DNA of 44,418 nt, from the sequence record PX502252.1, one strand, 5' to 3'. The stretch's first letter is position 1; the number at the start of each line of letters is the position of its first letter. This document shows, piece by piece, positions 28,853 through 44,350 of this stretch. A program made the position numbers and the translations under genes. Below the pieces are notes generated by a model that was not told where the DNA came from, searched no databases, and saw only the letters and a list, made by a program, of their open reading frames with translations. Origin of the DNA: a phage.

Positions 28853-29811
28853 TGAGTTACACATTCACTGAACATACAGCGAATGGCACTCAAACTACTT
28901 TCCCCTTCCGGTTCGCTGGGAGGGACAAGGGGTACTTGAGGGCTTCTGATATTTTAGTTGAAGTAAGAAATGATGGTGTATGGAACACGGTAAGCGGTTG
29001 GACACTTACAGGCACTAACCAGATAACCTTTAATGTACCACCAGCGGCAAATACAAAACTTCGCATCAGGCGCGTTGTAGAGAAAGAAGAGCCTTATGCA
29101 GAGTTTGACCGTGGTGTGACCTTAGATATGAAATCTCTCAATAACTCCTTTATACACCTTTTGGAAGTATCTCAGGAGCTACTGGATGGTTTCTATCCAG
29201 ATGGTTACTTTGTAAAGCAAGATACATCTTGGGGTGGACATAAGATTACTGATTTGGCTGATGGCACAAATCCGGGAGATGCAGTAAATAAAGGACAGCT
29301 TGATGCCATCGACAAGAAGCATACAGATTGGAACGCCAAACAGGACATTGAGATTGCTGGCCTTAAAGCAGGTATGACTTCTGGTATTGCGCACAGAACT
29401 GTCCCTTGGTATACGATCGCACAAGGAGGTGAGATTTCCGTAAAGCCTCCTTATGAATTTCAAGATGCACTAGTTTTCCTTAATGGGGTATTACAACACC
29501 AAATCGTAGGCGCATACTCTATAAGCAACAACACTATTACTTTCGCAGAGCCACTTGTGGCTGGCACAGAGGTGTACGTGTTGGTGGGGAGTCGTGTGGC
29601 TACATCTGAACCTAATATTCAGTTAGAGCTGAACTTTGACTTAGTAGAAGGTCAACAAGTAGTAAAGATTGGCTCTGCATTTAAGTATATTGAGGTTTAT
29701 CTTGATGGACTATTACAACCTAAACTTGCTTATCAGGTAGATGGTGACATTGTTACTTTCTCAGAGGGAGTACCAGAATGTCGGATGACTGCTAAGATTA
29801 TCACAGCATAA
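28852..29811 (+). CDS. Tail fibre adaptor protein (T7 gp17 N-terminal domain-like)
   Basis: N-terminus FTEHTANGTQTTFPFRF...TKLRIRR resembles tail-attachment domain of T7 gp17; 320 aa. Confidence 0.7.
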   Translation: MSYTFTEHTANGTQTTFPFRFAGRDKGYLRASDILVEVRNDGVWNTVSGWTLTGTNQITFNVPPAANTKLRIRRVVEKEEPYAEFDRGVTLDMKSLNNSFIHLLEVSQELLDGFYPDGYFVKQDTSWGGHKITDLADGTNPGDAVNKGQLDAIDKKHTDWNAKQDIEIAGLKAGMTSGIAHRTVPWYTIAQGGEISVKPPYEFQDALVFLNGVLQHQIVGAYSISNNTITFAEPLVAGTEVYVLVGSRVATSEPNIQLELNFDLVEGQQVVKIGSAFKYIEVYLDGLLQPKLAYQVDGDIVTFSEGVPECRMTAKIITA

Positions 29812-29820
29812 GGAGGTGGG

Positions 29821-30015
29821 ATGATAAACTCCGAACTGGTAGACAATGGTGTGAAGCTAGCGCCACCTGCATTAGTCTCAGGTGGGTACTTCCTCGGTAT
29901 CAGTTGGGACAATTGGGTACTGATAGCAACATTCATTTATACAGTGTTGCAGATTGGCGATTGGTTCTATACTAAATATACAATATGGAGGAAGAAGCGT
30001 GAGCGTGCACAATAA
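29821..30015 (+). CDS. Holin-like small membrane protein (64 aa)
   Basis: AGGAGG SD; hydrophobic segment WVLIATFIYTVLQIG and basic C-terminus RKKRERAQ; position equals T7 gene 17.5. Confidence 0.6.
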   Translation: MINSELVDNGVKLAPPALVSGGYFLGISWDNWVLIATFIYTVLQIGDWFYTKYTIWRKKRERAQ

Positions 30016-30298
30016 ACATGCAGCCACAGAGGATGAAGTAGGCATCCTGCATGGCGCTATTACGAAGATGTTTAATAAGAAAGCAAAGGCTATACTGGAC
30101 ACTATAGAAGCAGACCCTGATTCTGCTATGCACCTAGTGTCAGGTAAAGATATTGGAGCCATGTGTAAATGGGTTTTAGATAATGGCATTACTGCCACCC
30201 CTGCTGCACAGCAGGAGGAGTCCAAGTTATCTAAGCGCCTCAAGGCTATCCGAGAGGCGTCCAGTGGCAAGATCATTCAGTTCACTAAGGAGGATTGA
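29999..30298 (+). CDS. Terminase small subunit (start uncertain)
   Basis: Immediately upstream of large terminase with stop/start overlap; GTG 29999 has GGAGGA 6 nt upstream; ORF track extends to 29954. Confidence 0.55.
   Translation: MSVHNKHAATEDEVGILHGAITKMFNKKAKAILDTIEADPDSAMHLVSGKDIGAMCKWVLDNGITATPAAQQEESKLSKRLKAIREASSGKIIQFTKED
30091..30113 (+). promoter_or_regulatory. SP6-type phage promoter embedded in small terminase gene (TATACTGGACACTATAGAAGCAG)
   Basis: Core ACTGGACACTATAGAAG exact; in-frame encodes ILDTIEA. Confidence 0.55.
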
Positions 30299-32193
30299 TG
30301 GCTAAGGCAAGAGAATCACAAGCGGAGGCTCTTGCCAGATGGGAGATGCTACACGAGTTACAGCAGACCTTCCCTTATACCGCAGAAGGTTTGCTTCTCT
30401 TTGCTGATACAGTTATTCATAATTTAATTGCAGGTAGCCCTCATCTGATTCGTATGCAGGCAGACATCTTGAAATTCCTATTCTATGGACACAAGTATCG
30501 CCTCATCGAAGCGCCCCGTGGTATCGCTAAAACTACGCTGGCAGCAATCTATACGGTATTCCGTATCATTCATGAACCTCATAAGCGTATCATGGTTGTA
30601 TCACAAAACGCCAAGCGAGCAGAGGAAATCGCAGGTTGGGTTGTCAAAATCTTCCGAGGATTGGACTTCCTAGAGTTTATGCTGCCAGACATTTACGCTG
30701 GCGACCGTGCATCAGTTAAGGCATTCGAGATTCACTATACACTGCGTGGAAGCGACAAGTCTCCTTCTGTATCCTGCTACTCTATTGAAGCAGGTATGCA
30801 GGGTGCTCGTGCAGACATCATTCTAGCAGATGACGTTGAATCTATGCAGAATGCGCGTACCGCAGCAGGTCGTGCATTGCTTGAGGAATTAACCAAGGAG
30901 TTTGAATCTATCAACCAGTTTGGTGATATTATCTACCTTGGTACACCACAGAATGTGAACTCTATTTACAACAACCTTCCTGCACGCGGTTATTCTGTTC
31001 GTATCTGGACTGCTCGTTACCCTTCGGTAGAGCAAGAGCAATGTTATGGTGACTTCCTTGCACCTATGATCGTGCAGGATATGAAGGACAACCCAGCATT
31101 GCGAACAGGTTATGGTTTGGATGGCAACAGTGGCGCTCCTTGTGCACCTGAAATGTATGATGATGATGTCTTGATTGAGAAGGAAATCTCACAAGGTGCT
31201 GCTAAGTTCCAACTTCAGTTCATGCTTAACACTCGCATGATGGATGCTGACAGATACCCATTACGCCTGAACACTCTAATCTTCACCTCGTTTGGTACAG
31301 AGGAAGTCCCTGTGATGCCTACGTGGAGCAATGATTCCATAAACATCATTGGTGATGCACCTAAGTATGGTAACAAGCCTACAGATTTCATGTACAGACC
31401 TGTGGCACGTCCATACGAATGGGGTGCTGTTACACGCAAGATTATGTATATCGACCCAGCTGGTGGCGGTAAGAACGGGGATGAGACTGGCGTAGCCATC
31501 GTATTCCTGCACGGCACATTCATTTATGTATATCAGTGCTTTGGTGTGCCGGGCGGATACCGAGAATCGTCCCTGAATCGCATTGTGCAGGCCGCAAAGC
31601 AGGCGGGTGTTAAAGAGGTATTCATTGAGAAAAACTTTGGTCATGGTGCGTTTGAGGCTGTTATAAAGCCATACTTTGAAAGGGAGTGGCCTGTGACTAT
31701 CGAAGAAGACTACGCCACTGGTCAAAAAGAACTCCGTATCATCGAGACATTAGAGCCGCTGATGACCGCGCATAGACTTATCTTCAATGCTGAGATGGTC
31801 AAGTCGGATTTCGCTTCAGTACAGAATTACCCTCTGGAATTGCGGATGTCTTATAGTTTGTTCCACCAAATGTCGAACATCACTATTGAGAAGAACAGCC
31901 TCCGGCATGATGACCGCTTAGACGCTCTGTATGGCGCTGTGCGTCAATTAACTTCTCAGATAGACTATGACGAGGTTACTCGTATTAATCGCCTCAGAGC
32001 GCAGGAGATGCGCGATTATATACAGGCGATGAACACACCTAAACTTCGTCGGGCTATGCTGTACGGAGACTATGGTGATGAGCGAAGAACAACCAACACA
32101 TCCTTGGCAATGCAGCAGAGAGTTTACGGGCAGAATTGGAGGAACCGCTCAGGCTCTAGAAATACACTTTCCTCAAGGATTTCAAGGATTTAG
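30298..32193 (+). CDS. Terminase large subunit, T7 gp19-like
   Basis: Walker A-like PRGIAKTT, Walker B ADIILADDVE; 632 aa. Confidence 0.92.
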   Translation: MAKARESQAEALARWEMLHELQQTFPYTAEGLLLFADTVIHNLIAGSPHLIRMQADILKFLFYGHKYRLIEAPRGIAKTTLAAIYTVFRIIHEPHKRIMVVSQNAKRAEEIAGWVVKIFRGLDFLEFMLPDIYAGDRASVKAFEIHYTLRGSDKSPSVSCYSIEAGMQGARADIILADDVESMQNARTAAGRALLEELTKEFESINQFGDIIYLGTPQNVNSIYNNLPARGYSVRIWTARYPSVEQEQCYGDFLAPMIVQDMKDNPALRTGYGLDGNSGAPCAPEMYDDDVLIEKEISQGAAKFQLQFMLNTRMMDADRYPLRLNTLIFTSFGTEEVPVMPTWSNDSINIIGDAPKYGNKPTDFMYRPVARPYEWGAVTRKIMYIDPAGGGKNGDETGVAIVFLHGTFIYVYQCFGVPGGYRESSLNRIVQAAKQAGVKEVFIEKNFGHGAFEAVIKPYFEREWPVTIEEDYATGQKELRIIETLEPLMTAHRLIFNAEMVKSDFASVQNYPLELRMSYSLFHQMSNITIEKNSLRHDDRLDALYGAVRQLTSQIDYDEVTRINRLRAQEMRDYIQAMNTPKLRRAMLYGDYGDERRTTNTSLAMQQRVYGQNWRNRSGSRNTLSSRISRI

Positions 32194-32194
32194 T

Positions 32195-32217
32195 ATTTAC
32201 TGGACACTATAGGAGGA
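32195..32217 (+). promoter_or_regulatory. SP6-type phage promoter (ATTTACTGGACACTATAGGAGGA)
   Basis: Consensus match directly after terminase stop. Confidence 0.75.
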
Positions 32218-32345
32218 AGACCAAGAGAATAAAGGAGTATTATAGGATAATATAGGATTACCTAGGTTATATAGGTATGCCTTAGTATGGGTGTACTCCT
32301 GTACACCTATTCCTACTTACTATTTACTTATACATATAAGGAGTG
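32218..32345. other. AT-rich promoter-proximal element sharing TATAGGATTACCTAGG with region 139-280; candidate secondary origin
   Basis: 16-bp identical core and similar AT-rich TAGG-containing flanks. Confidence 0.4.
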
Positions 32346-32349
32346 TTAG

Positions 32350-32631
32350 ATGGCTAATGATTATAGTAATCAGCCTTTAACTGGTCGTTATGACCGTAAA
32401 CAGATTACACCAACTAGTGAAGCATTAATGCTCCCTGTTGTTACAGAGGAGTCTATTAAGAAGAAAGCCAATGTTATCAATGATGCAACCAAATCTGGTA
32501 AACAGAAAGCAGCAATGGTATGTCGTCCTGTAGGTGGCACTCTTGAGATTGCCATTGCTACTGGTAGCAAAGAGGATGCAGACTGGTTGTCTGTTAAAAT
32601 GGATGGCGTTGGCCTTATTACACCAGCTTAA
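32350..32631 (+). CDS. Paralog-family small protein 1 (93 aa)
   Basis: AAGGAG SD; shares IN...SGKQKAAMV...IAIATGS...W core with next two ORFs. Confidence 0.7.
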   Translation: MANDYSNQPLTGRYDRKQITPTSEALMLPVVTEESIKKKANVINDATKSGKQKAAMVCRPVGGTLEIAIATGSKEDADWLSVKMDGVGLITPA

Positions 32632-32648
32632 TAAAAGGAGAAGATAAT

Positions 32649-32936
32649 ATGTCTAAGTATGGCGATGCAGGTACTACTACTGGTCAGGCTTTTCGTGTAA
32701 AAGCAGTACAAACTATTGCAACTGCAATCCCTATGCCTATCGTGGCAGAAGCTGACCTTAAAAAGAAAGATCATCCAATTAATATTGAACACCTATCTGG
32801 TAAGCAGAAAGGTGCTATGGTGGTTGTAGATAAGGGAGATAATAGCCTTTATATTGCTATTGCACGTGGTTCTGCACCAACTGACCAGTGGGATGTAACT
32901 ACTATGGAAGCTGTACCTGTAACACCAGGAGCTTAA
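32649..32936 (+). CDS. Paralog-family small protein 2 (95 aa)
   Basis: AAGGAGAAG SD; INIEHLSGKQKGAMVVV...IAIARGSAPTDQW. Confidence 0.7.
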   Translation: MSKYGDAGTTTGQAFRVKAVQTIATAIPMPIVAEADLKKKDHPINIEHLSGKQKGAMVVVDKGDNSLYIAIARGSAPTDQWDVTTMEAVPVTPGA

Positions 32937-32937
32937 T

Positions 32938-33627
32938 ATGCTGGGAGTAACAGGACAACGCAATAAGAATGTAGCCACCAAAGTAGTGGCTGATTTAGCT
33001 ACTGCTGCTACTGTCGAGGAATTACGAGATCAACATAGCTCTATTAACCGTGCTGACCTTTCTGGTAAACAAGAAGGTTCCGCTGTTATTGTTAAGAAAG
33101 AAGATGGGAATTATTCTATCTTTGTAGCAACAGGAAGCAAGCCGACTGATGTGTGGAAAGAGTTGTCTCCAACAATACCAGAGCAAGAGATGCCTGCTGA
33201 ATATATTGATATGATTGATGTTCAAATTCATCAAGATTCTGCAAGCAACTTACGCATAGACTCTTCTCGCACTAGTTTAATACAAACACCAATGTGGGAT
33301 ACTGAAGGTGAGTTGTTATTCCGTAATACACTAAGTGCAACATGTTCTTGTACTATTCTTGTTGATGGTGCGTCTGGTGTTCGTCAGGATTTTACTTTTA
33401 AGATTAATGGACTTTTAGAGCAGGAAGAGCAGTATTATGATATTGACACACTTATGTGCTCTATTCACTCTGCAACAGCAACTAATGGCCTTACCTTGTG
33501 TATGCCAGATGCTAAAAGTGCAAAGACTAATAAAATGGTAGTTAAGATCGACACTATGCAGTCATTAGCTATGAGCTTTGATCTTAACTTCCTTGTAGAA
33601 TGGACGTCACCAACGAGGTTACTATAA
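32938..33627 (+). CDS. Paralog-family protein 3 (229 aa), conserved N-terminal domain plus C-terminal extension
   Basis: INRADLSGKQEGSAVIV...IFVATGSKPTDVW then about 140 aa unique region. Confidence 0.7.
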   Translation: MLGVTGQRNKNVATKVVADLATAATVEELRDQHSSINRADLSGKQEGSAVIVKKEDGNYSIFVATGSKPTDVWKELSPTIPEQEMPAEYIDMIDVQIHQDSASNLRIDSSRTSLIQTPMWDTEGELLFRNTLSATCSCTILVDGASGVRQDFTFKINGLLEQEEQYYDIDTLMCSIHSATATNGLTLCMPDAKSAKTNKMVVKIDTMQSLAMSFDLNFLVEWTSPTRLL

Positions 33628-33971
33628 TGCTAAATCAATACTTCAAGCGTAAAGAGTTTGCTTGCCGTTGTGGGTGCGGCACATCTACTGTTGATGCTGA
33701 GTTACTACAGGTAATCACAGATGTGCGTGAGCACTTTGGTTCTCCTGTAGTTATCACTTCTGGGCATCGCTGTGCTAAGCACAATGCTAATGTAGGGGGA
33801 GCTAAAAACTCCATGCATCTTACTGGTAAGGCTGCTGACATTAAGGTACGAGGCATCTTACCATCTGAAGTGCATAAGTATCTTACTGATAAGTACCAAG
33901 GCAAATATGGGATTGGTAAGTACAACTCCTTCACCCATATTGATGTACGGGATGGGTGTGCACGATGGTAG
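33627..33971 (+). CDS. Endolysin, zinc peptidase M15 family (L-alanyl-D-glutamate / D-Ala-D-Ala peptidase type)
   Basis: SGHRCAKHNANVGGAKNSMHLTGKAADI and FTHIDVR motifs (His/Asp zinc ligands of M15); start ATG 33627 with GAGG upstream (alternative 33600). Confidence 0.8.
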   Translation: MLNQYFKRKEFACRCGCGTSTVDAELLQVITDVREHFGSPVVITSGHRCAKHNANVGGAKNSMHLTGKAADIKVRGILPSEVHKYLTDKYQGKYGIGKYNSFTHIDVRDGCARW

Positions 33972-34079
33972 GTTGTGTTGCATGGTGTGAACGCATGGTT
34001 GCTAAGGCTTCAGAGGAAGGTAACTATGAAGATTGGCAGAACTACTCAACTTTATTAGCTCAATGGAAAGGGAGATGCA

Positions 34080-34229
34080 ATGAAAAAGCTGTTCAAGTCT
34101 AAGAAGGTTGTAGGTGCACTAGTTGCATTGGCAATTGCTCTTGTTTCTGTAGGTCTTGGCGTAGACCTTGGCTCTGGCACGGAATCCTCTGTGACAGATG
34201 TGGTCTGCCAAGTGATCACCTGTGAATAA
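34080..34229 (+). CDS. Small membrane protein (49 aa), lysis-cassette associated
   Basis: AGGGAG SD; N-terminal basic then hydrophobic VVGALVALAIALVSVGLGV; below ORF-track cutoff. Confidence 0.4.
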   Translation: MKKLFKSKKVVGALVALAIALVSVGLGVDLGSGTESSVTDVVCQVITCE

Positions 34230-34443
34230 GTTTCTAGAAGTGCTGGCAGGTATTATTGGCCTGCTTGTATCTGCTAAGAAGAAACAAGAAGAGAAGGAGG
34301 CACAAAGTGAAGCGAATCATGCTAGCGACAATCCTGCTGATTGGTTCGCTGATAATTTCCGGGTGTCAGCAGGCGCTACAAGAGAAGAAAGGTGTGAAGC
34401 CGCTGAAGCCGACGCTGACGGCAGTTTACGAAATGGACGGTAA
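34222..34443 (+). CDS. Putative i-spanin (Rz-like), GTG start
   Basis: N-terminal TM FLEVLAGIIGLLVSA followed by charged helical region; contains overlapping o-spanin in +1 frame. Confidence 0.45.
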   Translation: MNKFLEVLAGIIGLLVSAKKKQEEKEAQSEANHASDNPADWFADNFRVSAGATREERCEAAEADADGSLRNGR

Positions 34444-34516
34444 GGTCTGCTTCAGTAAGCCTGACGCTACACAATTAGGTTTGTATATTCTTTCACTAGA
34501 GCGTGGATATAATTAA
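34307..34516 (+). CDS. Putative o-spanin (Rz1-like) outer-membrane lipoprotein, overlapping i-spanin
   Basis: Lipoprotein signal peptide KRIMLATILLIGSLIISG|C with lipobox ISGC; AAGGAGG 5 nt upstream of GTG 34307 (ATG 34319 alternative). Confidence 0.6.
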   Translation: MKRIMLATILLIGSLIISGCQQALQEKKGVKPLKPTLTAVYEMDGKVCFSKPDATQLGLYILSLERGYN

Positions 34517-34545
34517 TACATAGCTTTATGTATCAGTGTCTTACG

Positions 34546-34568
34546 ATTTACTGGACACTATAGAAGAG
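34546..34568 (+). promoter_or_regulatory. SP6-type phage promoter (ATTTACTGGACACTATAGAAGAG) upstream of receptor-binding protein genes
   Basis: Full consensus match; ORF track's 34536 start runs through it, so true CDS start is downstream. Confidence 0.8.
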
Positions 34569-34646
34569 ATAAATAGTGCCGTTCATTTGAGCGGCCTATT
34601 ACTAGCCAATCTTCATAGGGAGGGTTGGAAAGTAATAGGAGACAAT

Positions 34647-35714
34647 ATGGCTAAACTTACTAAAGTCTTCCAAGGCAGGGATGGTAAAGGTCAAGAGGAC
34701 TTTTATACCGGAGGTGGATGGAGCGGAGCCGATGGTGAGTCCGGTAGTATTTATAAAACTGTAGGCTCTCCACAAGAGAGTGCATCTAGGTGGAGATTTT
34801 CATTAAAAGAAAATGAACTAGTAGAAGAGCCTACCATCTGGTTAAATAAACGAACCAAAGTGTCTAGAAGTGATGGCATTAAAAGGTGGGATGCTGGCAA
34901 TTTATATTGCGGCCTAGATAAGATAGAAGGAGATGCATATGCTGCATCTTTAACTGGTGCAGCAAGACACCTAGGTGGGGAAGGGGATGTGATAGGTGTG
35001 CACGGAAGAGGTTGTGCCTATCATGGAAAAGCAAAAGTATGGGGTGGGTGGTTTTACGCTGCATCCAGAGTAGATAGCGAAGTTGTTGCAGGAGAAGCAC
35101 CTATTGATATGATAGGTGTTGAAATAAACTTAAACCATAAAAGAGAGGACATCTCTTGGACACCAGCAGAGGGTAAAGGCTTATACCGAGGCCTTGTAGT
35201 CACTACGGCAGATGGTGGAAAAAGATGCCATATAGGTATAGATGTTGGAGCACAAACCAGTAATAAATCAGAACCTTGGTATGTAGGGCTACGCATAAGA
35301 AAGGACAGCATAGTTCCTTTCAATGATGAAAGAGAAGGTAATGCGGCATCTGCAATATTAATAGAAGGCTCTACTCTACAATCCAAGGCGTATGGTGGTT
35401 TATCATTTAAGAATGGAACCCTAGCATATGGTATAGATTTTACAGGTATAGCTTTGATTGACAACCAAGCTGCATTGGTAATGAAAGATGACCATAGGAT
35501 CCGTTGGGGTTCAAGGGTGTCATCTAGATACATCTCAGGCAACAGTGTAACTGGTCAAGTAAATTTCAATAACTATGCAATTGCAGTAAATGGCAATAAA
35601 GTTATTGGAGAGCAACAACAAGCCATAAGTAATGCATCACAAGGTACAGAGGTTGATACTATAAATAATATCTTAGAAGCCCTAAGATCTCACGGACTAA
35701 TTAAGAGAGGTTAA
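34647..35714 (+). CDS. Putative tail fibre / receptor-binding protein 1 (355 aa), function unassigned
   Basis: TAGGAGA SD before ATG 34647; Gly-rich; located in the tailspike module; no confident domain call. Confidence 0.55.
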   Translation: MAKLTKVFQGRDGKGQEDFYTGGGWSGADGESGSIYKTVGSPQESASRWRFSLKENELVEEPTIWLNKRTKVSRSDGIKRWDAGNLYCGLDKIEGDAYAASLTGAARHLGGEGDVIGVHGRGCAYHGKAKVWGGWFYAASRVDSEVVAGEAPIDMIGVEINLNHKREDISWTPAEGKGLYRGLVVTTADGGKRCHIGIDVGAQTSNKSEPWYVGLRIRKDSIVPFNDEREGNAASAILIEGSTLQSKAYGGLSFKNGTLAYGIDFTGIALIDNQAALVMKDDHRIRWGSRVSSRYISGNSVTGQVNFNNYAIAVNGNKVIGEQQQAISNASQGTEVDTINNILEALRSHGLIKRG

Positions 35715-35718
35715 TATT

Positions 35719-35862
35719 ATGAAGGAAGAAGTTATTAAAAATATCTTAAAGTTTATGAGTCGAGTTGAATTACATGGGTATGAAGTTCCTGCTTTTGTTA
35801 TTTGTATGGACTCGCTTGAAGCTATGCTTCTATCAAGCAATGAAGACAAAGCGGATGTTTAA
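35719..35862 (+). CDS. Small protein (47 aa) between the two receptor-binding genes
   Basis: ATG 4 nt after upstream stop, GAGAGG upstream; followed by hairpin terminator; below ORF-track cutoff. Confidence 0.35.
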   Translation: MKEEVIKNILKFMSRVELHGYEVPAFVICMDSLEAMLLSSNEDKADV

Positions 35863-35868
35863 ACAGTG

Positions 35869-35890
35869 GCAGTGCGTAAGCACTGCTTTT
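35869..35890 (+). terminator. Hairpin GCAGTGC-GTAA-GCACTGC followed by TTTT
   Basis: Perfect 7-bp stem, GNRA-like tetraloop, T-tract. Confidence 0.55.
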
Positions 35891-35946
35891 CACGCAACTT
35901 TTCTTAAAGGTTATCATGGTGGTAGCCTTTCAGAAAAGGAGGGTAC

Positions 35947-37605
35947 ATGCTGCAACGATTAAGTGCTTCCTTAGTGAAGTACAAGAGCAAGCTCATAGGA
36001 GCTACCTATAGGTTGCTTGGTGATAAACTTTTAGAGCTAAATAGTGTATCAGATTTTGGTGCAATACCTAATCTTGAAACAGATAGTACTAACTCCATTC
36101 AAGCTGCAATTGATGCGACCCCGTCTGGTGGTACTCTAGGCTTCTATGGTGGGCCTTATAGATTTGGTACTGTTACAGTGGATAAACCAATTACACTAGT
36201 TGGAGATGCAGATTTGCAGTTTGAGTGCATTCGTATCAAGACAAGTAAGTTTCGTAGTTTCTTGACAGGAACACTAACTGCTGCAAGATACGACAGTGCA
36301 TGTCGTGCATTTCAAATCTTAGCCTATGAAGATGGGGAAGATTATGAGGACATCAAGGTACATGGTGCACGTTTCGAGGGTTTCTTCTATAACACAGACT
36401 TCCGAGGCCGTTCTTACGATGCGTCAGAAAGTGATCCCGCTAACAGAGTGGTTCGGGATACCTCCATTATGGGTTGTACTTCAGTTCAACCTAAAGATGG
36501 TAAAGACAGAGGGCACTTTCAACACGTAGGTGTTACCAATGCCAAGTGCATAGGTAACTCAACGTATGGTGGTAAGAATGCTACTTCTTATAACTTCATT
36601 AATGGTAATGGCTCTTTGGTGGTTATTGGTAATTATGACCATGACAATGAATACGGCTCCTTAGAGATTGAGAATAACAAGATAAGCTATGGTGTGGTTA
36701 CTGGTAATATCTTCCATAAACAACTATGGATAGATGATACTAGCAATATTAATGTAATAGGTAACACCTGTACAGATAGGATTTACATTACTGCACAATC
36801 TAACAACTCTGAGAACGTATCAGTAGTGGGGAATAATGTACCACGCATCTACGTCAGTAAGTTTGGTCAAAGCCCAACAGGGCGTCACCGTAACTTGACT
36901 ATACGTGGTAATCATATCACTGGCAAGGATGTTCCTAACTGTATCTTCTTAGATGATTCTGTTGATTCCGCTTCTATTGAAGGTAATGATTGTTATGGTG
37001 TGTCTGGTGTTAAAGGCATAGCCATTACTCGTCATGCAGATGCTAACCATACAGTGCGTCATAATAACTTACATGGCACTAACTTACTCTTTAGTGGTTC
37101 GGGCGGAAAAGTTTATAGTTATGACAACTTTGATGTTGGAGTTGATGAATCCCCTGTGGCAGACAGAACTGACGCAGTGCACATTGACAACCTTCTTCGT
37201 GTAAATGATGAGTACCTTGATTTGCCAGGAAAGTACCTATACAAATCTAAGTATACAAGAGACATTACACAAGGTGGCTCAACCACTATTGAGTTACCTG
37301 TAACCACAAGTGGTTCTTTGGCTTTTCGTGGTATTAGTTTATGGGTTCTTATCCGTAACACTTCTACGGGGAACTTGTCTTCTTATCGTGTAGATGGAAG
37401 ACATGCAGTAAGTGGTTCTTCTGTGACTGTTAGCTTTGGAGAGAAGTATGGGGTATTAGGAGTGAATACTGGTGATGTTACTGTTAGTAATGATGCCTCT
37501 ACGACTACTCTTATTCGTATCAAGGTAAGCAATGAGCATGTAAGTCAGACAATGCAGGTTACAGTTGTACCAGAGGTAACAAGCAGATTAGGGACTGAAG
37601 AGTAA
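35947..37605 (+). CDS. Tailspike with pectate-lyase-like right-handed beta-helix (polysaccharide depolymerase)
   Basis: AAAGGAGGG SD; N-terminal VSDFGAIPN...TDSTNSIQAAIDATPSGGTL...TLVGD typical of beta-helix depolymerase start; repeated GN-containing rungs (VIGNYD, VIGNTC, VVGNNV, IRGNHI, IEGNDC). Confidence 0.8.
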   Translation: MLQRLSASLVKYKSKLIGATYRLLGDKLLELNSVSDFGAIPNLETDSTNSIQAAIDATPSGGTLGFYGGPYRFGTVTVDKPITLVGDADLQFECIRIKTSKFRSFLTGTLTAARYDSACRAFQILAYEDGEDYEDIKVHGARFEGFFYNTDFRGRSYDASESDPANRVVRDTSIMGCTSVQPKDGKDRGHFQHVGVTNAKCIGNSTYGGKNATSYNFINGNGSLVVIGNYDHDNEYGSLEIENNKISYGVVTGNIFHKQLWIDDTSNINVIGNTCTDRIYITAQSNNSENVSVVGNNVPRIYVSKFGQSPTGRHRNLTIRGNHITGKDVPNCIFLDDSVDSASIEGNDCYGVSGVKGIAITRHADANHTVRHNNLHGTNLLFSGSGGKVYSYDNFDVGVDESPVADRTDAVHIDNLLRVNDEYLDLPGKYLYKSKYTRDITQGGSTTIELPVTTSGSLAFRGISLWVLIRNTSTGNLSSYRVDGRHAVSGSSVTVSFGEKYGVLGVNTGDVTVSNDASTTTLIRIKVSNEHVSQTMQVTVVPEVTSRLGTEE

Positions 37606-41722: not shown

Positions 41723-44350
41723 ATGCAAGATTTACACGCTATCCAGCTTCAGCTTGAAGAGGAAATGTTTAACGGCGGTATTCGTCGCTTTGAAGCAGAC
41801 CAACAACGCCAGATTGCATCAGGTAATGAATCCGATACGGCATGGAATCGTCGCCTATTGTCGGAACTTATCGCACCTATGGCTGAAGGTATTCAGGCTT
41901 ATAAGGAAACCTACGAAGGCAAGAAAGGACGCGCACCGCGTGCACTGGCTTTCATTAACTGCGTAGAGAACGAAGTGGCAGCATATATCACGATGAAGAT
42001 CGTAATGGATATGCTTAACACTGATGTAACCTTGCAAGCCATAGCAATGAATGTAGCTGATCGCATCGAAGACCAAGTACGCTTCAGCAAGCTGGAAGGT
42101 CACGCCGCCAAATACTTTGAGAAAGTAAAGAAGTCGCTTAAGGCAAGTAAGACTAAATCATATCGCCATGCGCACAACGTAGCGGTGGTGGCTGAGAAGT
42201 CAGTAGCTGACCGTGACTCTGATTTCTCTCGCTGGGAAGCATGGCCTAAAGATACCTTGCTACAAATCGGTATGACCTTGCTAGAAATACTGGAGAATAG
42301 TGTATTCTTCAATGGTCATCCTGTTTTCCTCCGCACCTTGCGCACTAATGGTGGTAAGCATGGTGTTTACTACTTACAGACCAGTGAACATGTAGGGAAA
42401 TGGATTACAGCATTCAAAGAACATGTAGCGCAACTAAGCCCAGCGTATGCACCTTGCGTTATACCTCCACGTCCGTGGGTTTCTCCTTTTAATGGTGGAT
42501 TTCACACTGAGAAGGTGGCAAGCCGCATCCGTCTAGTTAAAGGAAACCGCGAGCACGTCCGCAAGTTAACCAAAAAGCAGATGCCAGCGGTTTACAAGGC
42601 TGTTAACGCTTTGCAGGAGACTAAATGGCAGGTTAATAAAGAAGTCTTGCAGGTAGTAGAAGACGTTATCCGTCTCGACCTTGGCTATGGTGTACCTTCA
42701 TTTAAACCACTCATCGACCGCGAGAATAAGCCAGCTAACCCAGTGCCGTTAGAATTCCAGCACTTGCGAGGCCGTGAGTTGAAAGAAATGTTAACGCCGG
42801 AACAATGGCAAGCCTTCATTAACTGGAAAGGTGAATGTACCAAGCTGTATACCGCAGAGACTAAGCGCGGCAGCAAGTCGGCGGCAACCGTTCGCATGGT
42901 AGGGCAGGCCCGTAAATACAGCCAGTTTGACGCTATTTATTTTGTATATGCACTGGATAGCCGTTCACGCGTTTATGCGCAATCTAGCACGCTCTCACCG
43001 CAATCAAACGACTTAGGCAAGGCGCTCCTACGGTTTACCGAAGGGCAGACTATAAACAGCGCTGAGGCGCTTAAGTGGTTTTTGGTGAACGGGGCGAATA
43101 ACTGGGGTTGGGATAAGAAAACCTTTGACGTGCGCACCGCTAACGTGTTGGATGGTGAATTCCAAGACATGTGCCGCGATATTGCAGCCGACCCGCTGAC
43201 CTTTACTCAATGGGTAAATGCTGATTCTCCTTACGGTTTCCTTGCATGGTGCTTTGAATACGCGCGTTATCTAGATGCGCTGGATGAAGGCACGCAAGAC
43301 CAATTCATGACGCACCTACCAGTACACCAAGATGGTAGCTGTTCCGGCATCCAGCACTACAGCGCTATGCTACGCGACGAAGTCGGTGCTAAGGCGGTAA
43401 ACCTTAAACCATCCAACGAGCCGCAAGACATTTATGGCGCGGTTGCTCAGGTTGTTATCCAGAAGAATTACGCCTACATGAATGCAGATGATGCGGAAAC
43501 TTTCACATCTGGAAGTGTAACCCTTACAGGTGCAGAACTGCGCAGCATGGCTAACGCGTGGGATATGATTGGGATCACTCGCGGCCTGACCAAGAAACCC
43601 GTTATGACCCTGCCATACGGCTCCACACGCTTAACCTGCCGTGAATCGGTGATTGATTATATCGTTGATTTGGAAGAAAAAGAGGCACAACGAGCTATCG
43701 CCGAAGGGCGGACGGCGAATCCTGTGCACCCTTTTGATAATGACCGTAAAGACTACCTGACACCGGGCGCGGCATATAACTATATGACTGCTCTCATCTG
43801 GCCTTCCATCTCTGAGGTTGTGAAAGCTCCGATAGTTGCCATGAAAATGATTCGCCAGCTTGCACGTTTCGCAGCTAAGAGGAACGAAGGATTAGAATAC
43901 CCCTTACCGACTGGCTTCATCTTGCAACAAAAGATAATGGCAACCGATATGCTTCGCGTATCCACTTGCTTGATGGGTGAAATCAAGATGAGTCTCCAGA
44001 TTGAAACAGATGTAGTTGATGAAACGGCAATGATGGGTGCGGCTGCTCCTAACTTCGTGCACGGTCATGATGCTAGCCACCTGATTCTGACTGTATGTGA
44101 CCTAGTGGATAAAGGTATTACATCCATTGCAGTCATCCATGATTCTTTCGGCACTCATGCAGGACGTACCGCAGACCTGCGGGATAGCTTAAGGGCAGAA
44201 ATGGTTAAGATGTATCAAGACCATAATGCCTTGCAAAACCTGCTGGATGTGCACGAAGAACGTTGGTTAGTAGATACCGGAATCCAAGTACCAGAGCAAG
44301 GAGAGTTTGACCTTAACGAAATCTTAGTATCTGACTATTGCTTCGCATAA
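41723..44350 (+). CDS. Single-subunit DNA-directed RNA polymerase, SP6-type
   Basis: 875 aa; N-terminus [32 protein letters not shown] and long stretches match SP6 RNAP as I recall it; motifs [14 protein letters not shown] and VHDSFGTH; cognate promoters throughout genome. Confidence 0.97.

What the first reader, a model, noticed from the sequence alone, without database searches (positions are those of the whole stretch)
29821..34516. Split lysis module: holin before terminase, M15 endolysin and overlapping spanins after it
The holin-like gene sits at the T7 gene 17.5 position, whereas the endolysin is a zinc M15 peptidase (not a T7-type amidase) located 3.6 kb downstream with an i-spanin/o-spanin pair in overlapping frames (o-spanin lipobox LIISGC). 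An extra 49-aa membrane ORF (34080-34229) precedes the spanins and could be a second holin/antiholin or the true N-terminus of the i-spanin via frame change.
Basis: partly seen in the sequence, partly recalled or inferred. Interest (0 to 1): 0.5.

Follow-up and report, generated by a model that had tools for sequence, protein, structure and literature searches.

The report
Known SP6-type phage lysis genes
This is the ordinary, already catalogued lysis gene set of a K1-5/SP6-like coliphage, but databases disagree on which of two tiny genes is the inner-membrane partner of its outer-membrane lipoprotein, and that question is worth a bench test.

Summary
The window is a Vectrevirus (K1-5/K1E/SP6-like) genome, 92-96% identical to published phages here.

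- **Secure calls:** a T7-family holin (29821-30015), a cytoplasmic M15 zinc-peptidase endolysin (33627-33971) and an outer-membrane lipoprotein (34307-34516, lipobox IISG|C).
- **The overlapping 73-aa ORF (34222-34443) is a real gene.** It has no stops in 20 relatives. pN/pS is 0.41 in its own frame against 1.2-2.8 in the other frames. It overlaps the lipoprotein gene in the +1 frame in all 41 related loci examined.
- **It is a poor i-spanin.** Its N-terminal helix is a weak membrane anchor, and is plainly amphipathic in 8 of 20 lineages.
- **The 49-aa ORF (34080-34229) is not an extra.** SpaninDB and the LL11 and SP6 GenBank records call it the i-spanin, while RefSeq calls it a holin. It resembles T7 gp19.5, a lysis-timing membrane protein. 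Other small membrane proteins replace it in distant relatives.
- **The frameshift idea fails.** The relative frame of the two ORFs differs between lineages (+1, -1, 0), and each has its own start codon at the upstream stop.

Verdict: a known arrangement with an unresolved partner assignment, of modest interest.

The parts
29821..30015 (+). Holin of the T7 gp17.5 family, between the tail-fibre-like gene and terS
   Evidence: PF10746, E 3.2e-28, 97.7 bits against a cut-off of 25.4. phrog_920 'holin', E 6e-27. tblastn with T7 gp17.5 gives 35% identity, E 1e-6. Annotated as a class II holin in relatives.
29999..32193 (+). Context: small terminase (29999-30298, GTG start as in relatives) and large terminase (30295-32193), which separate the holin from the other lysis genes
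   Evidence: PF11123 and phrog_891; annotations of relatives.
32202..32215 (+). SP6-type phage promoter core. No further match lies before 34553, so 32350-34516 reads as one transcription unit.
   Evidence: GGACACTATAGGAG, 1 mismatch to the core. There are 18 matches in the window against 3.9 expected.
33627..33971 (+). Endolysin: M15_3 (LAS-type) zinc peptidase with no signal or SAR sequence, so it depends on a holin
   Evidence: PF08291, E 5.7e-33. phrog_894 'endolysin'. Active-site stretch aligns to zinc D-Ala-D-Ala carboxypeptidase 1LBU. The motifs SMHLTGKAAD (H-x6-D) and FTHID are visible in the translation.
33965..34102 (+). orf45: conserved small Cys/Trp-rich protein of unknown role. 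It overlaps the endolysin by 7 nt and the next gene by 23 nt.
   Evidence: phrog_1312, E 4e-18. Conserved in SP6-like, Proteus, Klebsiella, Pantoea, Aeromonas and Edwardsiella phages.
34080..34229 (+). tm49: 49-aa type II inner-membrane protein (basic N-terminus, one TMD, about 21-aa periplasmic tail ending in an invariant C-x4-C). Probable T7 gp19.5 homologue and lysis-timing or holin-like accessory. SpaninDB lists it as the i-spanin.
   Evidence: TMD of 19 uncharged residues, dG -0.7 to -2.1 in 7 lineages. Invariant C43 and C48. phrog_4712 'holin'. SpaninDB note 'Too small?'. hhalign to the gp19.5 family: 72%, E 3e-5. hhalign to 2-TMD holin-like proteins: 88.7%. pN/pS 0.33.
34222..34443 (+). 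orf73: 73-aa protein whose GTG start overlaps the tm49 stop (TGTGAATAA). It has an N-terminal hydrophobic or amphipathic helix, a charged helix, an NPxDWFxxHF motif and a disordered acidic tail. Best candidate for the inner partner of the lipoprotein.
   Evidence: In 34231-34306 there are 0 stops in 20 sequences, and pN/pS is 0.41 against 1.18 and 2.83 in the other frames. phrog_9219. 42 clusters of 49-132 aa (37 of them 58-83 aa) among 1.84 billion representative proteins, plus one unrelated 2546-aa hit. Overlaps the lipoprotein gene in all 41 related loci. AF2 model: helix 2-36, helix 38-46, tail disordered.
34246..34264 (+). Conserved small hairpin inside the 5' part of orf73 (GCAGGTaTTATTGGCCTGC); role unknown
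   Evidence: 91.5% of cells paired across 21 sequences, 3 pairs with changes on both sides, 2 of 500 shuffles as high. It could also be a by-product of the conserved AGLIGLL codons.
34307..34516 (+). Outer-membrane lipoprotein (o-spanin type), 69 aa, GTG start with an AAGGAGG Shine-Dalgarno sequence. Lipobox IISG|C, Gln at +2. In the +1 frame relative to orf73, with a 137-nt overlap.
   Evidence: phrog_8971 'Rz-like spanin', E 3e-36. UniRef name 'O-spanin'. Invariant lipobox Cys, P-x-K/R-P and Y-I-x-x-L-E. pN/pS 0.13 in the non-overlapping part. AF2 model: signal helix, linker, beta-hairpin 39-49, helix 51-65, block-mean pLDDT 90-96 over residues 31-60.
34553..34566 (+). SP6-type promoter for the tailspike gene, marking the end of the lysis unit
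   Evidence: Exact match to GGACACTATAGAAG. Annotated as a promoter in the K1E and K5 fragments X78310 and Y10025.

Best explanation
This is the normal late lysis equipment of an SP6/K1-5-like podophage. The holin gene keeps its T7 position (17.5, before the terminase genes). The other lysis genes lie after the large terminase gene, in one transcription unit that ends with five mutually overlapping genes: endolysin, orf45, tm49, orf73 and the lipoprotein.

Proposed order of events (inferred unless marked as shown):
1. The T7-type holin permeabilises the inner membrane. tm49, a 49-aa membrane protein that looks like T7 gp19.5, probably assists or times this step.
2. The cytoplasmic M15 zinc peptidase, which has no export signal (shown by sequence), reaches the cell wall and cuts it.
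3. The outer membrane is breached by a spanin-like pair. The lipoprotein sits in the outer membrane: its lipobox is present and residue +2 is not Asp (shown). Its inner partner is orf73, whose gene overlaps the lipoprotein gene in the +1 frame exactly as Rz1 overlaps Rz (shown).
4. orf73 is held at the inner membrane by its N-terminal hydrophobic helix. This is the weakest link in the model.
5. orf73 is translated by coupling to tm49. Its start codon sits at the tm49 stop (shown).
For: **Identity of the region**
- 92-96% DNA identity to Vectrevirus genomes with the same gene order.
- Holin, endolysin and lipoprotein family matches.

**orf73 is coding and under purifying selection**
-.

**orf73 and the lipoprotein travel together**
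- They co-occur with a +1 overlap in 27 GenBank loci from at least 10 host genera, 8 IMG/VR loci and 6 metagenome loci.
- The gene upstream of orf73 is not constant. It is tm49 in Autographiviridae. It is a 2-TMD holin-like protein in L029-L036, L038, L040 and L041. It is a third type in L042, L043 and L045.
- In L037 the same 2-TMD protein is followed by a canonical 170-aa Rz with an embedded Rz1. So orf73 plus the lipoprotein occupy the Rz/Rz1 slot.
- SpaninDB itself lists the orf73 homologue as the overlapped i-spanin of UAB_Phi78.

**tm49 resembles T7 gp19.5**
- Both are 49 aa, both lie after terL, and both end in VVCxxxTC. The best tblastn hit of gp19.5 in the whole window is tm49. hhalign gives 72%.
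- T7 keeps gp19.5 as well as its own Rz/Rz1 pair. Mutations in gp19.5 compensate for loss of the holin (PMC2680503; PMC8365609).

**Transcription**
- No phage promoter lies between 32202 and 34553.
Against: - orf73 has no robust TMD. Its longest uncharged run is 5-15 residues. dG over 19 residues is +1.7 to +12.4. Eight of 20 lineages have a clearly amphipathic helix (muH 0.58-0.68), and lysines follow the helix.
- Without a TMD or signal peptide, how orf73 would reach the periplasm is unexplained.
- orf73 shows no homology to T7 gp18.5 (hhalign 0.1%) and has no conserved periplasmic Cys.
- Co-inheritance of orf73 and the lipoprotein is partly forced by their physical overlap.
- The tm49-gp19.5 link is only moderate. 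Pfam PF17553 does not hit tm49. hhalign gives 57-72%.
- Curators from the lysis field chose tm49 as the i-spanin for K1-5, K1E, SP6 and LL11.
- No experiment on any of these three genes was found in the searchable literature.
Confidence: 0.5

Rival explanations
1. tm49 is the i-spanin and the lipoprotein is a 'separated' o-spanin, as in SpaninDB and the LL11 and SP6 GenBank records. orf73 has some other job, for example a cytoplasmic regulator of the small membrane protein to which it is translationally coupled.
For: - tm49 has the required N-in/C-out topology with a real TMD.
- Its two periplasmic Cys are invariant, and the lipoprotein keeps a periplasmic Cys in most lineages.
- It lies next to the lipoprotein gene.
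- Expert curation supports it: SpaninDB, the LL11 CPT annotation and SP6 record AY288927.2.
- orf73 lacks a TMD in many lineages.
Against: - Only about 21 periplasmic residues. The SpaninDB curators themselves flagged it 'Too small?'.
- Together with the 49-residue mature lipoprotein this gives about 70 residues, near the shortest total on record (62).
- In 14 loci with a lipoprotein homologue, tm49 is replaced by other membrane proteins. Among them the 2-TMD type has only an 11-residue periplasmic loop and cannot be an i-spanin.
- The lipoprotein Cys is kept where tm49 and its Cys residues are absent.
- The likely homologue T7 gp19.5 coexists with a complete Rz/Rz1 pair.
Confidence: 0.2
2. 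The system has three parts. A small inner-membrane protein (tm49 here), orf73 and the lipoprotein act together. The membrane protein supplies or assists the anchor, or the export, for the weakly hydrophobic orf73, which in turn binds the lipoprotein.
For: - In every locus examined a small membrane protein lies immediately upstream of orf73, with start and stop codons overlapping or adjacent (8, 4, 1 or 0 nt). This holds even where separate holins exist (L038: PF16083; L042: PF16080/82; this window: PF10746).
- The three proteins in series could span the periplasm, whereas no two of them comfortably do (an inference from lengths and the AF2 models).
Against: - The upstream protein belongs to at least three different types, which fits a generic role better than a specific binding partner.
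- There is no direct evidence of any interaction.
- A precedent with a simpler reading exists: P2 K-lysA-lysB-lysC, where lysA is a membrane protein that affects timing (from my own knowledge).
Confidence: 0.2
3. tm49 and orf73 are joined by programmed frameshifting into one roughly 120-aa i-spanin.
For: - A fusion would have textbook i-spanin topology and size.
- One metagenome protein (P0077, 95 aa) does join a tm49-like TMD to an orf73 domain.
Against: - The frame of orf73 relative to the upstream gene is +1 here and in the SP6-like, Proteus, Klebsiella and Aeromonas Tola phages. It is -1 in JSF38, ECBP5, the Edwardsiella and Erwinia phages and marine loci such as L029. It is 0 in Nufs112.
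- Every lineage has its own GTG or ATG at the stop codon.
- In the window the +1 frame is closed by a TGA two codons before the GTG, and there is no slippery run.
- The closest relatives of P0077 carry two separate genes, so P0077 is a deletion or an assembly join.
Confidence: 0.03
4. orf73 is not a gene but an accidental open frame over the 5' part of the lipoprotein gene.
For: Many annotations omit it (K1-5, K1E, LL11, PSK8). It is short and starts with GTG.
Against: - It is open in all relatives despite up to about 35% DNA divergence.
- Variability peaks at the third codon position in its own frame.
- pN/pS is 0.41, while the two other frames contain stops and give pN/pS above 1.
- Distant homologues have ATG starts.
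- The family has 42 clusters.
Confidence: 0.02

Closest known systems
Lysis genes of phages K1-5, K1E and SP6 (K1-5 genes 37, 43, 44, 45), as in RefSeq and SpaninDB (Kongari et al. 2018, PMC6139136)
   Same: Same genes in the same order, with 84-98% protein identity to K1-5. The layout is holin before terS, M15 endolysin after terL, then the 49-aa membrane protein and the 69-aa lipoprotein.
   Different: Nothing material. The window carries an extra 229-aa paralogue (32938-33627) before the endolysin that K1-5 lacks. The public records disagree on names: the 49-aa protein is 'holin' in RefSeq and 'i-spanin' in SpaninDB, LL11 and SP6. The 73-aa ORF is unannotated, 'hypothetical', or mislabelled 'o-spanin' in SP6.
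Phage T7 lysis system (gp17.5 holin, gp3.5 amidase, gp18.5/18.7 spanins, gp19.5)
   Same: Holin family and holin position match. A 49-aa membrane protein ending in VVCxxxTC lies downstream of terL (gp19.5 and tm49). The outer-membrane lipoprotein gene lies in the +1 frame of its partner gene.
   Different: - The endolysin is an M15 peptidase placed late, not an early amidase that also regulates the RNA polymerase. No gp3.5 homologue was found.
- No spanin genes lie between terS and terL.
- orf73 and the lipoprotein show no detectable homology to gp18.5 or gp18.7.
- They are overlapped rather than embedded, and much shorter (73 and 69 aa against 143 and 83 aa).
Lambda Rz/Rz1 and the overlapped P2 lysB/lysC two-component spanins, with P2 lysA upstream
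   Same: An outer-membrane lipoprotein gene starts inside, and in the +1 frame of, the upstream gene. The most constrained part of one protein lies over the least constrained part of the other. As in P2, a small membrane protein gene sits between the endolysin gene and the pair (P2 order recalled from my own knowledge).
   Different: Rz and LysB have a clear N-terminal TMD and a 100-130-aa coiled-coil periplasmic domain. orf73 has a weak or amphipathic N-terminal helix, about 30 further helical residues and a disordered tail. There is no sequence homology.

Membership tests
T7-type holin (Pfam PF10746, holin superfamily II) | Profile match above the curated cut-off | tested here: met
   97.7 bits against a cut-off of 25.4, E 3.2e-28. 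phrog_920, E 6e-27.
T7-type holin (Pfam PF10746, holin superfamily II) | Small protein with hydrophobic segment(s) and a highly charged C-terminus, encoded between the tail-fibre gene and terS | tested here: met
   64 aa, with WVLIATFIYTVLQIGDWF and the C-terminus RKKRERAQ. Same position as in T7 and in relatives.
T7-type holin (Pfam PF10746, holin superfamily II) | Timed lethal permeabilisation of the inner membrane that releases the endolysin | not testable with these tools
   Needs expression or complementation experiments.
M15 (LAS-type) zinc peptidase endolysin | Profile match, with the zinc-binding H-x6-D and the C-terminal His motif intact | tested here: met
   PF08291, 113.7 bits against a cut-off of 23.2. 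SMHLTGKAAD and FTHID are in the translation. Alignment to 1LBU covers the SGxR...H-x6-D stretch.
M15 (LAS-type) zinc peptidase endolysin | No signal peptide or SAR domain, meaning a canonical holin-dependent endolysin | tested here: met
   The N-terminus MLNQYFKRKEFACRCGCGTSTVD has no hydrophobic stretch.
o-spanin (outer-membrane spanin subunit) | N-terminal lipoprotein signal with lipobox and Cys, and no Asp at +2 | tested here: met
   MKRIMLATILLIGSLIIS-G-C-Q. The Cys is invariant in 18 diverse homologues and none has Asp at +2.
o-spanin (outer-membrane spanin subunit) | Short periplasmic domain, encoded next to or overlapping an inner-membrane partner gene in the lysis cassette | tested here: met
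   49-aa mature part. The gene overlaps orf73 by 137 nt in the +1 frame and lies 77 nt after tm49. phrog_8971 'Rz-like spanin'. Listed in SpaninDB.
o-spanin (outer-membrane spanin subunit) | Required for outer-membrane disruption; binds the i-spanin | not testable with these tools
   No experiment was found for this family.
i-spanin, candidate orf73 | N-terminal transmembrane domain, N-in and C-out | tested here: inconclusive
   In the window the uncharged run is 12 residues and dG(19) is +8.3, against +4.7 for T7 gp18.5 and -2.5 for lambda Rz. Across 20 lineages dG(19) ranges from +1.7 to +12.4, and 8 lineages are amphipathic with muH of at least 0.58. SpaninDB nevertheless lists the UAB_Phi78 homologue as an overlapped i-spanin with 48 periplasmic residues.
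i-spanin, candidate orf73 | Gene that contains or overlaps the o-spanin start, with the o-spanin in the +1 frame; constant co-occurrence | tested here: met
   +1 frame in every locus checked. Co-occurs in all 41 related loci.
i-spanin, candidate orf73 | Helical periplasmic domain; homology to a known i-spanin family | tested here: not met
   Helices 2-36 and 38-46 are predicted. There is no match to Rz-type Pfam or PHROG families or to T7 gp18.5 (hhalign 0.1%).
i-spanin, candidate tm49 | N-terminal transmembrane domain, N-in and C-out | tested here: met
   Basic N-terminus MKKLFKSKK, 19-residue TMD, dG -0.7 to -2.1 in 7 lineages.
i-spanin, candidate tm49 | Periplasmic domain able, together with the o-spanin, to bridge the periplasm; constant partner of the o-spanin family | tested here: not met
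   About 21 periplasmic residues, flagged 'Too small?' in SpaninDB. Replaced by unrelated or 2-TMD membrane proteins in 14 loci that keep the lipoprotein.
T7 gp19.5 family (PF17553, phrog_2193) | Profile match | tested here: inconclusive
   No PF17553 hit for tm49 at E up to 1. gp19.5 hits tm49's family phrog_4712 as its second-best family, E 0.032. hhalign of the two family alignments: 72%, E 3.3e-5, 31 columns. The best tblastn hit of gp19.5 in all six frames of the window is tm49, E 0.06.
T7 gp19.5 family (PF17553, phrog_2193) | 49-aa protein encoded downstream of terL, with one TMD and a C-terminal C-x4-C | tested here: met
   gp19.5 ends ...LESVVCSILTCSD and tm49 ends ...VTDVVCQVITCE. Both are 49 aa.
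Programmed ribosomal frameshift joining tm49 and orf73 | Slippery site and a conserved frame relation between the two ORFs | tested here: not met
   The frame relation is +1, -1 or 0 depending on lineage. There is no slippery run. An independent start codon is present in every lineage.

The most novel reading that the evidence does not exclude
orf73 plus the lipoprotein would be a distinct, widespread class of outer-membrane disruption system, found from enterobacterial Autographiviridae to marine phages. In it the inner partner has no true transmembrane anchor. orf73 would be a small helical protein with an amphipathic N-terminus. It would either be tethered through the variable small membrane protein it is translationally coupled to (tm49 here), or stay cytoplasmic until the holin fires and then complete a short lipoprotein-bound complex. 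Spanin assembly would then be gated by the holin. As a corollary, the '49-aa i-spanins' of K1-5, K1E and SP6 in SpaninDB are gp19.5-like lysis-timing proteins, not spanins.
Probability: 0.2. Interest if true: 0.65.

Novelty: already known. Interest (0 to 1): 0.3.

Why it matters
The layout itself is textbook for SP6-like phages and adds nothing new. The small residual value concerns annotation and function.

- **Inconsistent records.** Public resources contradict each other on these three tiny genes. The names used are holin, i-spanin and hypothetical. The SP6 record even labels the wrong reading frame 'o-spanin'.
- **Propagation.** K1-5/K1E-type phages are used in therapy work and engineering, so wrong labels spread.
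- **What the comparison here shows.** The overlooked 73-aa ORF is a conserved gene that always accompanies the lipoprotein. The 49-aa protein looks like T7 gp19.5, the unexplained 'second lysis-timing factor' of T7.
- **What that enables.** The vague 'Too small?' flag in SpaninDB becomes a clean two- or three-plasmid complementation experiment. It also offers a route to the function of T7 gp19.5.

Tried and rejected
1. **Frameshift fusion of tm49 and orf73.** Rejected. The frame relation differs between lineages and each has its own start codon.
2. **P0077 as a 'Rosetta-stone' fusion.** At first it looked like proof that tm49 plus orf73 is a split i-spanin. Its closest IMG/VR relatives have two separate genes, a 64-aa 2-TMD protein and orf73. 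So it is a deletion or an assembly join and was not used as evidence.
3. **Homology of orf73 and the lipoprotein to T7 gp18.5 and gp18.7.** None beyond the signal peptide and lipobox.
4. **Pfam and NCBIfam for tm49, orf73, the lipoprotein and orf45.** Nothing significant. DUF2489 at E 0.006 is below its cut-off.
5. **Rfam scan of 29000-36000.** No match.
6. **Sigma-70 promoter and intrinsic terminator scan.** Not above the shuffled expectation.
7. **Foldseek of the lipoprotein model against BFVD.** Only family members. T4-type PseT.2 appears at E 0.94, not significant.
8. **Cys co-conservation as a link between tm49 and the lipoprotein.** Rejected. The lipoprotein keeps its Cys where tm49 is absent.
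10. **Literature searches for experiments on SP6-like lysis genes.** Nothing beyond genome descriptions.
11. **A T7-type amidase elsewhere in the window.** None found by tblastn or in 10 middle-region ORFs.

Full report
**What the window is**

A megablast of 29500-35000 finds 128 phage records. The best are Escherichia Vectrevirus genomes (EEc2, vB_EcoP-101117UKE2, K1-5, LL11, CrRp3) at 87-96% identity with the same gene order. The window is therefore a K1-5/K1E/SP6-like podophage genome. Eighteen matches to the SP6-type promoter core GGACACTATAGAAG, against 3.9 expected, confirm the type.

**Checking the observation**

Three details need correction.
- The endolysin probably starts at ATG 33627 (114 aa), as annotated in K1-5, CrRp3 and EEc2.
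- The lipoprotein probably starts at GTG 34307. AAGGAGG lies 6 nt upstream. This codon is ATG in SP6 and BP12B, and SP6 has lost the internal ATG.
- A further 45-aa gene (33965-34102, phrog_1312) overlaps both the endolysin and the 49-aa ORF.

So five genes in a row overlap each other. They lie in one transcription unit bounded by promoters at 32202 and 34553.

**The secure assignments**

- *Holin.* 29821-30015 matches the T7 holin family (PF10746, E 3e-28; phrog_920) and aligns with T7 gp17.5. It sits between the tail-fibre-like gene and terS, as in T7.
- *Endolysin.* 33627-33971 is a Peptidase_M15_3 protein (E 6e-33) with H-x6-D and H-I-D motifs. Its active-site stretch aligns to the zinc D-Ala-D-Ala carboxypeptidase 1LBU. 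It has no N-terminal hydrophobic segment, so it needs a holin.
- *No T7-type amidase.* tblastn with a T7 gp3.5 sequence recalled from memory found nothing.
- *Lipoprotein.* 34307-34516 has a canonical lipobox (IISG|C, then Gln at +2) and matches phrog_8971 'Rz-like spanin'. UniRef names it O-spanin and SpaninDB lists it.
- *Lipoprotein model.* AF2 gives a signal helix, a 20-residue linker, then a confident beta-hairpin plus helix.

This 'split' layout is the published norm for the group.

**The 73-aa overlapping ORF is a real gene**

- In an alignment of 20 relatives, up to about 35% diverged, the stretch unique to this ORF (34231-34306) has no stop codon in its frame.
- Variability there is highest at third codon positions of that frame.
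- pN/pS is 0.41, while the two other frames have 27 and 13 stops and pN/pS of 2.83 and 1.18.
- In the overlap with the lipoprotein gene both frames give about 0.6.
- A profile search of 1.84 billion representative proteins finds 42 clusters. Thirty-seven are 58-83 aa long. They share an N-terminal hydrophobic or amphipathic helix, a charged helix with a conserved Ala-Gln, an (N/D)PxxWFxxHF motif and a polar tail.
- AF2 predicts helices 2-36 and 38-46 and a disordered tail.

**The trio is conserved, but only two members are constant**

tm49, orf73 and the lipoprotein occur together in all 27 GenBank loci examined. These cover Vectrevirus, Zindervirus, Acadevirus and Gajwadongvirus, plus Klebsiella, Pantoea, Vibrio, Aeromonas, Edwardsiella and Erwinia phages. 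This holds even where the endolysin is a different enzyme, as in Aeromonas phage Tola.

In 14 more distant IMG/VR and metagenome loci, orf73 and the lipoprotein are again present and overlapped in the +1 frame. The gene immediately upstream differs.
- It is a 64-aa two-TMD holin-like protein in L029-L036, L038, L040 and L041.
- It is a TMD-plus-amphipathic-helix protein in L042, L043 and L045.

Profile comparison suggests tm49 is related to the N-terminal two-thirds of the two-TMD type (hhalign 88.7%). In L037 that same two-TMD protein precedes a canonical 170-aa Rz with an embedded Rz1. So orf73 plus the lipoprotein occupy the Rz/Rz1 slot.

**Which one is the i-spanin?**

Public sources conflict.
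- SpaninDB lists the 49-aa protein as a 'separated' i-spanin for K1-5, K1E and SP6, with the curators' note 'Too small? ... only 20 pp residues'. For UAB_Phi78 it lists the orf73 homologue as an 'overlapped' i-spanin.
- LL11 and the updated SP6 record call tm49 the i-spanin. The SP6 record labels the orf73-frame ORF 'o-spanin'.
- RefSeq calls tm49 'holin'.

Each candidate fails one criterion.
- *tm49* has a true TMD (dG -0.7 to -2.1) and an invariant periplasmic C-x4-C. But its tail is about 21 residues, and it is not a constant partner of the lipoprotein family.
- *orf73* is the constant, overlapped partner. But its N-terminal helix is marginal as a TMD in the SP6-like phages: the uncharged run is 12 residues, against 15 in the proven i-spanin T7 gp18.5. 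It is frankly amphipathic in 8 of 20 lineages.
- orf73 shows no homology to T7 gp18.5.

**tm49 looks like T7 gp19.5**

- T7 gp19.5 is also 49 aa, also encoded after terL, and also has a basic N-terminus and one hydrophobic segment. It ends ...LESVVCSILTCSD, against ...VTDVVCQVITCE in tm49.
- It is the best tblastn hit of gp19.5 in all six frames of the window.
- gp19.5 hits tm49's family phrog_4712 as its second-best family (E 0.032).
- The two family alignments give hhalign 72%, E 3e-5.
- Pfam PF17553 does not detect tm49, so the link is likely rather than proven.

**The frameshift suggestion**

- In the window the orf73 GTG (34222) lies inside TGTGAATAA, overlapping the tm49 stop by 8 nt. 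The +1 frame is closed by a TGA two codons upstream, and there is no slippery run.
- The GTG is kept in all 20 SP6-like, Proteus, Klebsiella and Aeromonas sequences.
- Other lineages use ATGA or TAATG overlaps (frame -1) or an ATG directly after the stop (frame 0).
- A recoding signal cannot be conserved across three different frame relations. Translational coupling explains all of them.
- One apparent natural fusion, P0077, turned out to be a deletion or an assembly join.

**Verdict**

The finding is real but ordinary: a known, annotated lysis gene arrangement. My best model, at about 0.5, has three parts.
- The T7-type holin, helped or timed by the gp19.5-like tm49, releases the M15 endolysin.
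- orf73 plus the lipoprotein act as an overlapped spanin-like pair.
- How a protein with so weak an anchor works on the inner-membrane side is unexplained. That gap leaves room for the SpaninDB reading (about 0.2) and for a three-part system (about 0.2).

None of this can be settled in silico. The complementation test listed under next steps would settle it.

Noticed in passing
window 33965-34102: A 45-aa gene (phrog_1312, motif C-x-x-W-C...GNYxDWQNY...W) is wedged between the endolysin and tm49 and overlaps both. Homologues sit at the same place in SP6-like, Proteus, Klebsiella, Pantoea, Aeromonas and Edwardsiella phages. They are absent from the marine loci. It has no TMD and its function is unknown.
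   Followed up: partly
window 32350-32631, 32649-32936, 32938-33627: Three tandem paralogues share an N-terminal domain of about 90 aa (phrog_2725 and phrog_32357). Relatives label them 'acetyl-CoA acetyltransferase', but no Pfam family supports that name. K1-5 and LL11 have only two copies. One Klebsiella record calls the equivalent a 'minor capsid protein with Ig-domain'.
   Followed up: no
window 34246-34264: A small hairpin (GCAGGTaTTATTGGCCTGC) lies 24 nt into orf73. It is conserved at the nucleotide level across genera, with a few compensatory changes such as GCAGC...GCTGC in Klebsiella phage K13PH07C1S. It may affect translation of orf73 or the lipoprotein, or it may simply reflect the conserved AGLIGLL codons.
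   Followed up: partly
L020 (SP6, AY288927.2) 1064-1261: The updated SP6 GenBank record labels gene 48 'o-spanin'. That CDS is in the orf73 frame. The lipobox-bearing ORF (L020 1128-1337) is in another frame and is not annotated. This looks like an annotation slip.
   Followed up: yes
L028 (TARA scaffold) 329-616, compared with L029 1043-1443: A marine metagenome scaffold, seen in two samples, carries an in-frame join between the first TMD of a 2-TMD holin-like gene and the orf73 homologue. The nearly identical IMG/VR contig has two separate genes. It is either a natural deletion variant or an assembly artefact.
   Followed up: partly
L037 2001-2706: The same 2-TMD holin-like protein that precedes orf73 and the lipoprotein in marine phages is here followed by a canonical 170-aa Rz-like protein with an embedded proline-rich Rz1-like lipoprotein. 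This is an example of module exchange at the spanin slot.
   Followed up: no
window 34518-34535 and 34547-34569: An AT-rich inverted repeat (ATACATAgcttTATGTAT) directly after the lipoprotein stop codon is conserved in the SP6-like relatives. It is followed by an SP6-type promoter (ATTTACTGGACACTATAGAAGAG) for the tailspike gene. Another promoter core lies inside the terS gene at 30097-30110.
   Followed up: no
whole window: The window starts at an arbitrary point of the genome relative to the K1-5 reference, with an 875-aa ORF at the far end (41723-44350). One Logan contig carrying an 83%-identical lipoprotein (P0105) has exactly the window's length, 44418 bases. Several close relatives carry an HNH homing endonuclease in this region that the window lacks.
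   Followed up: no
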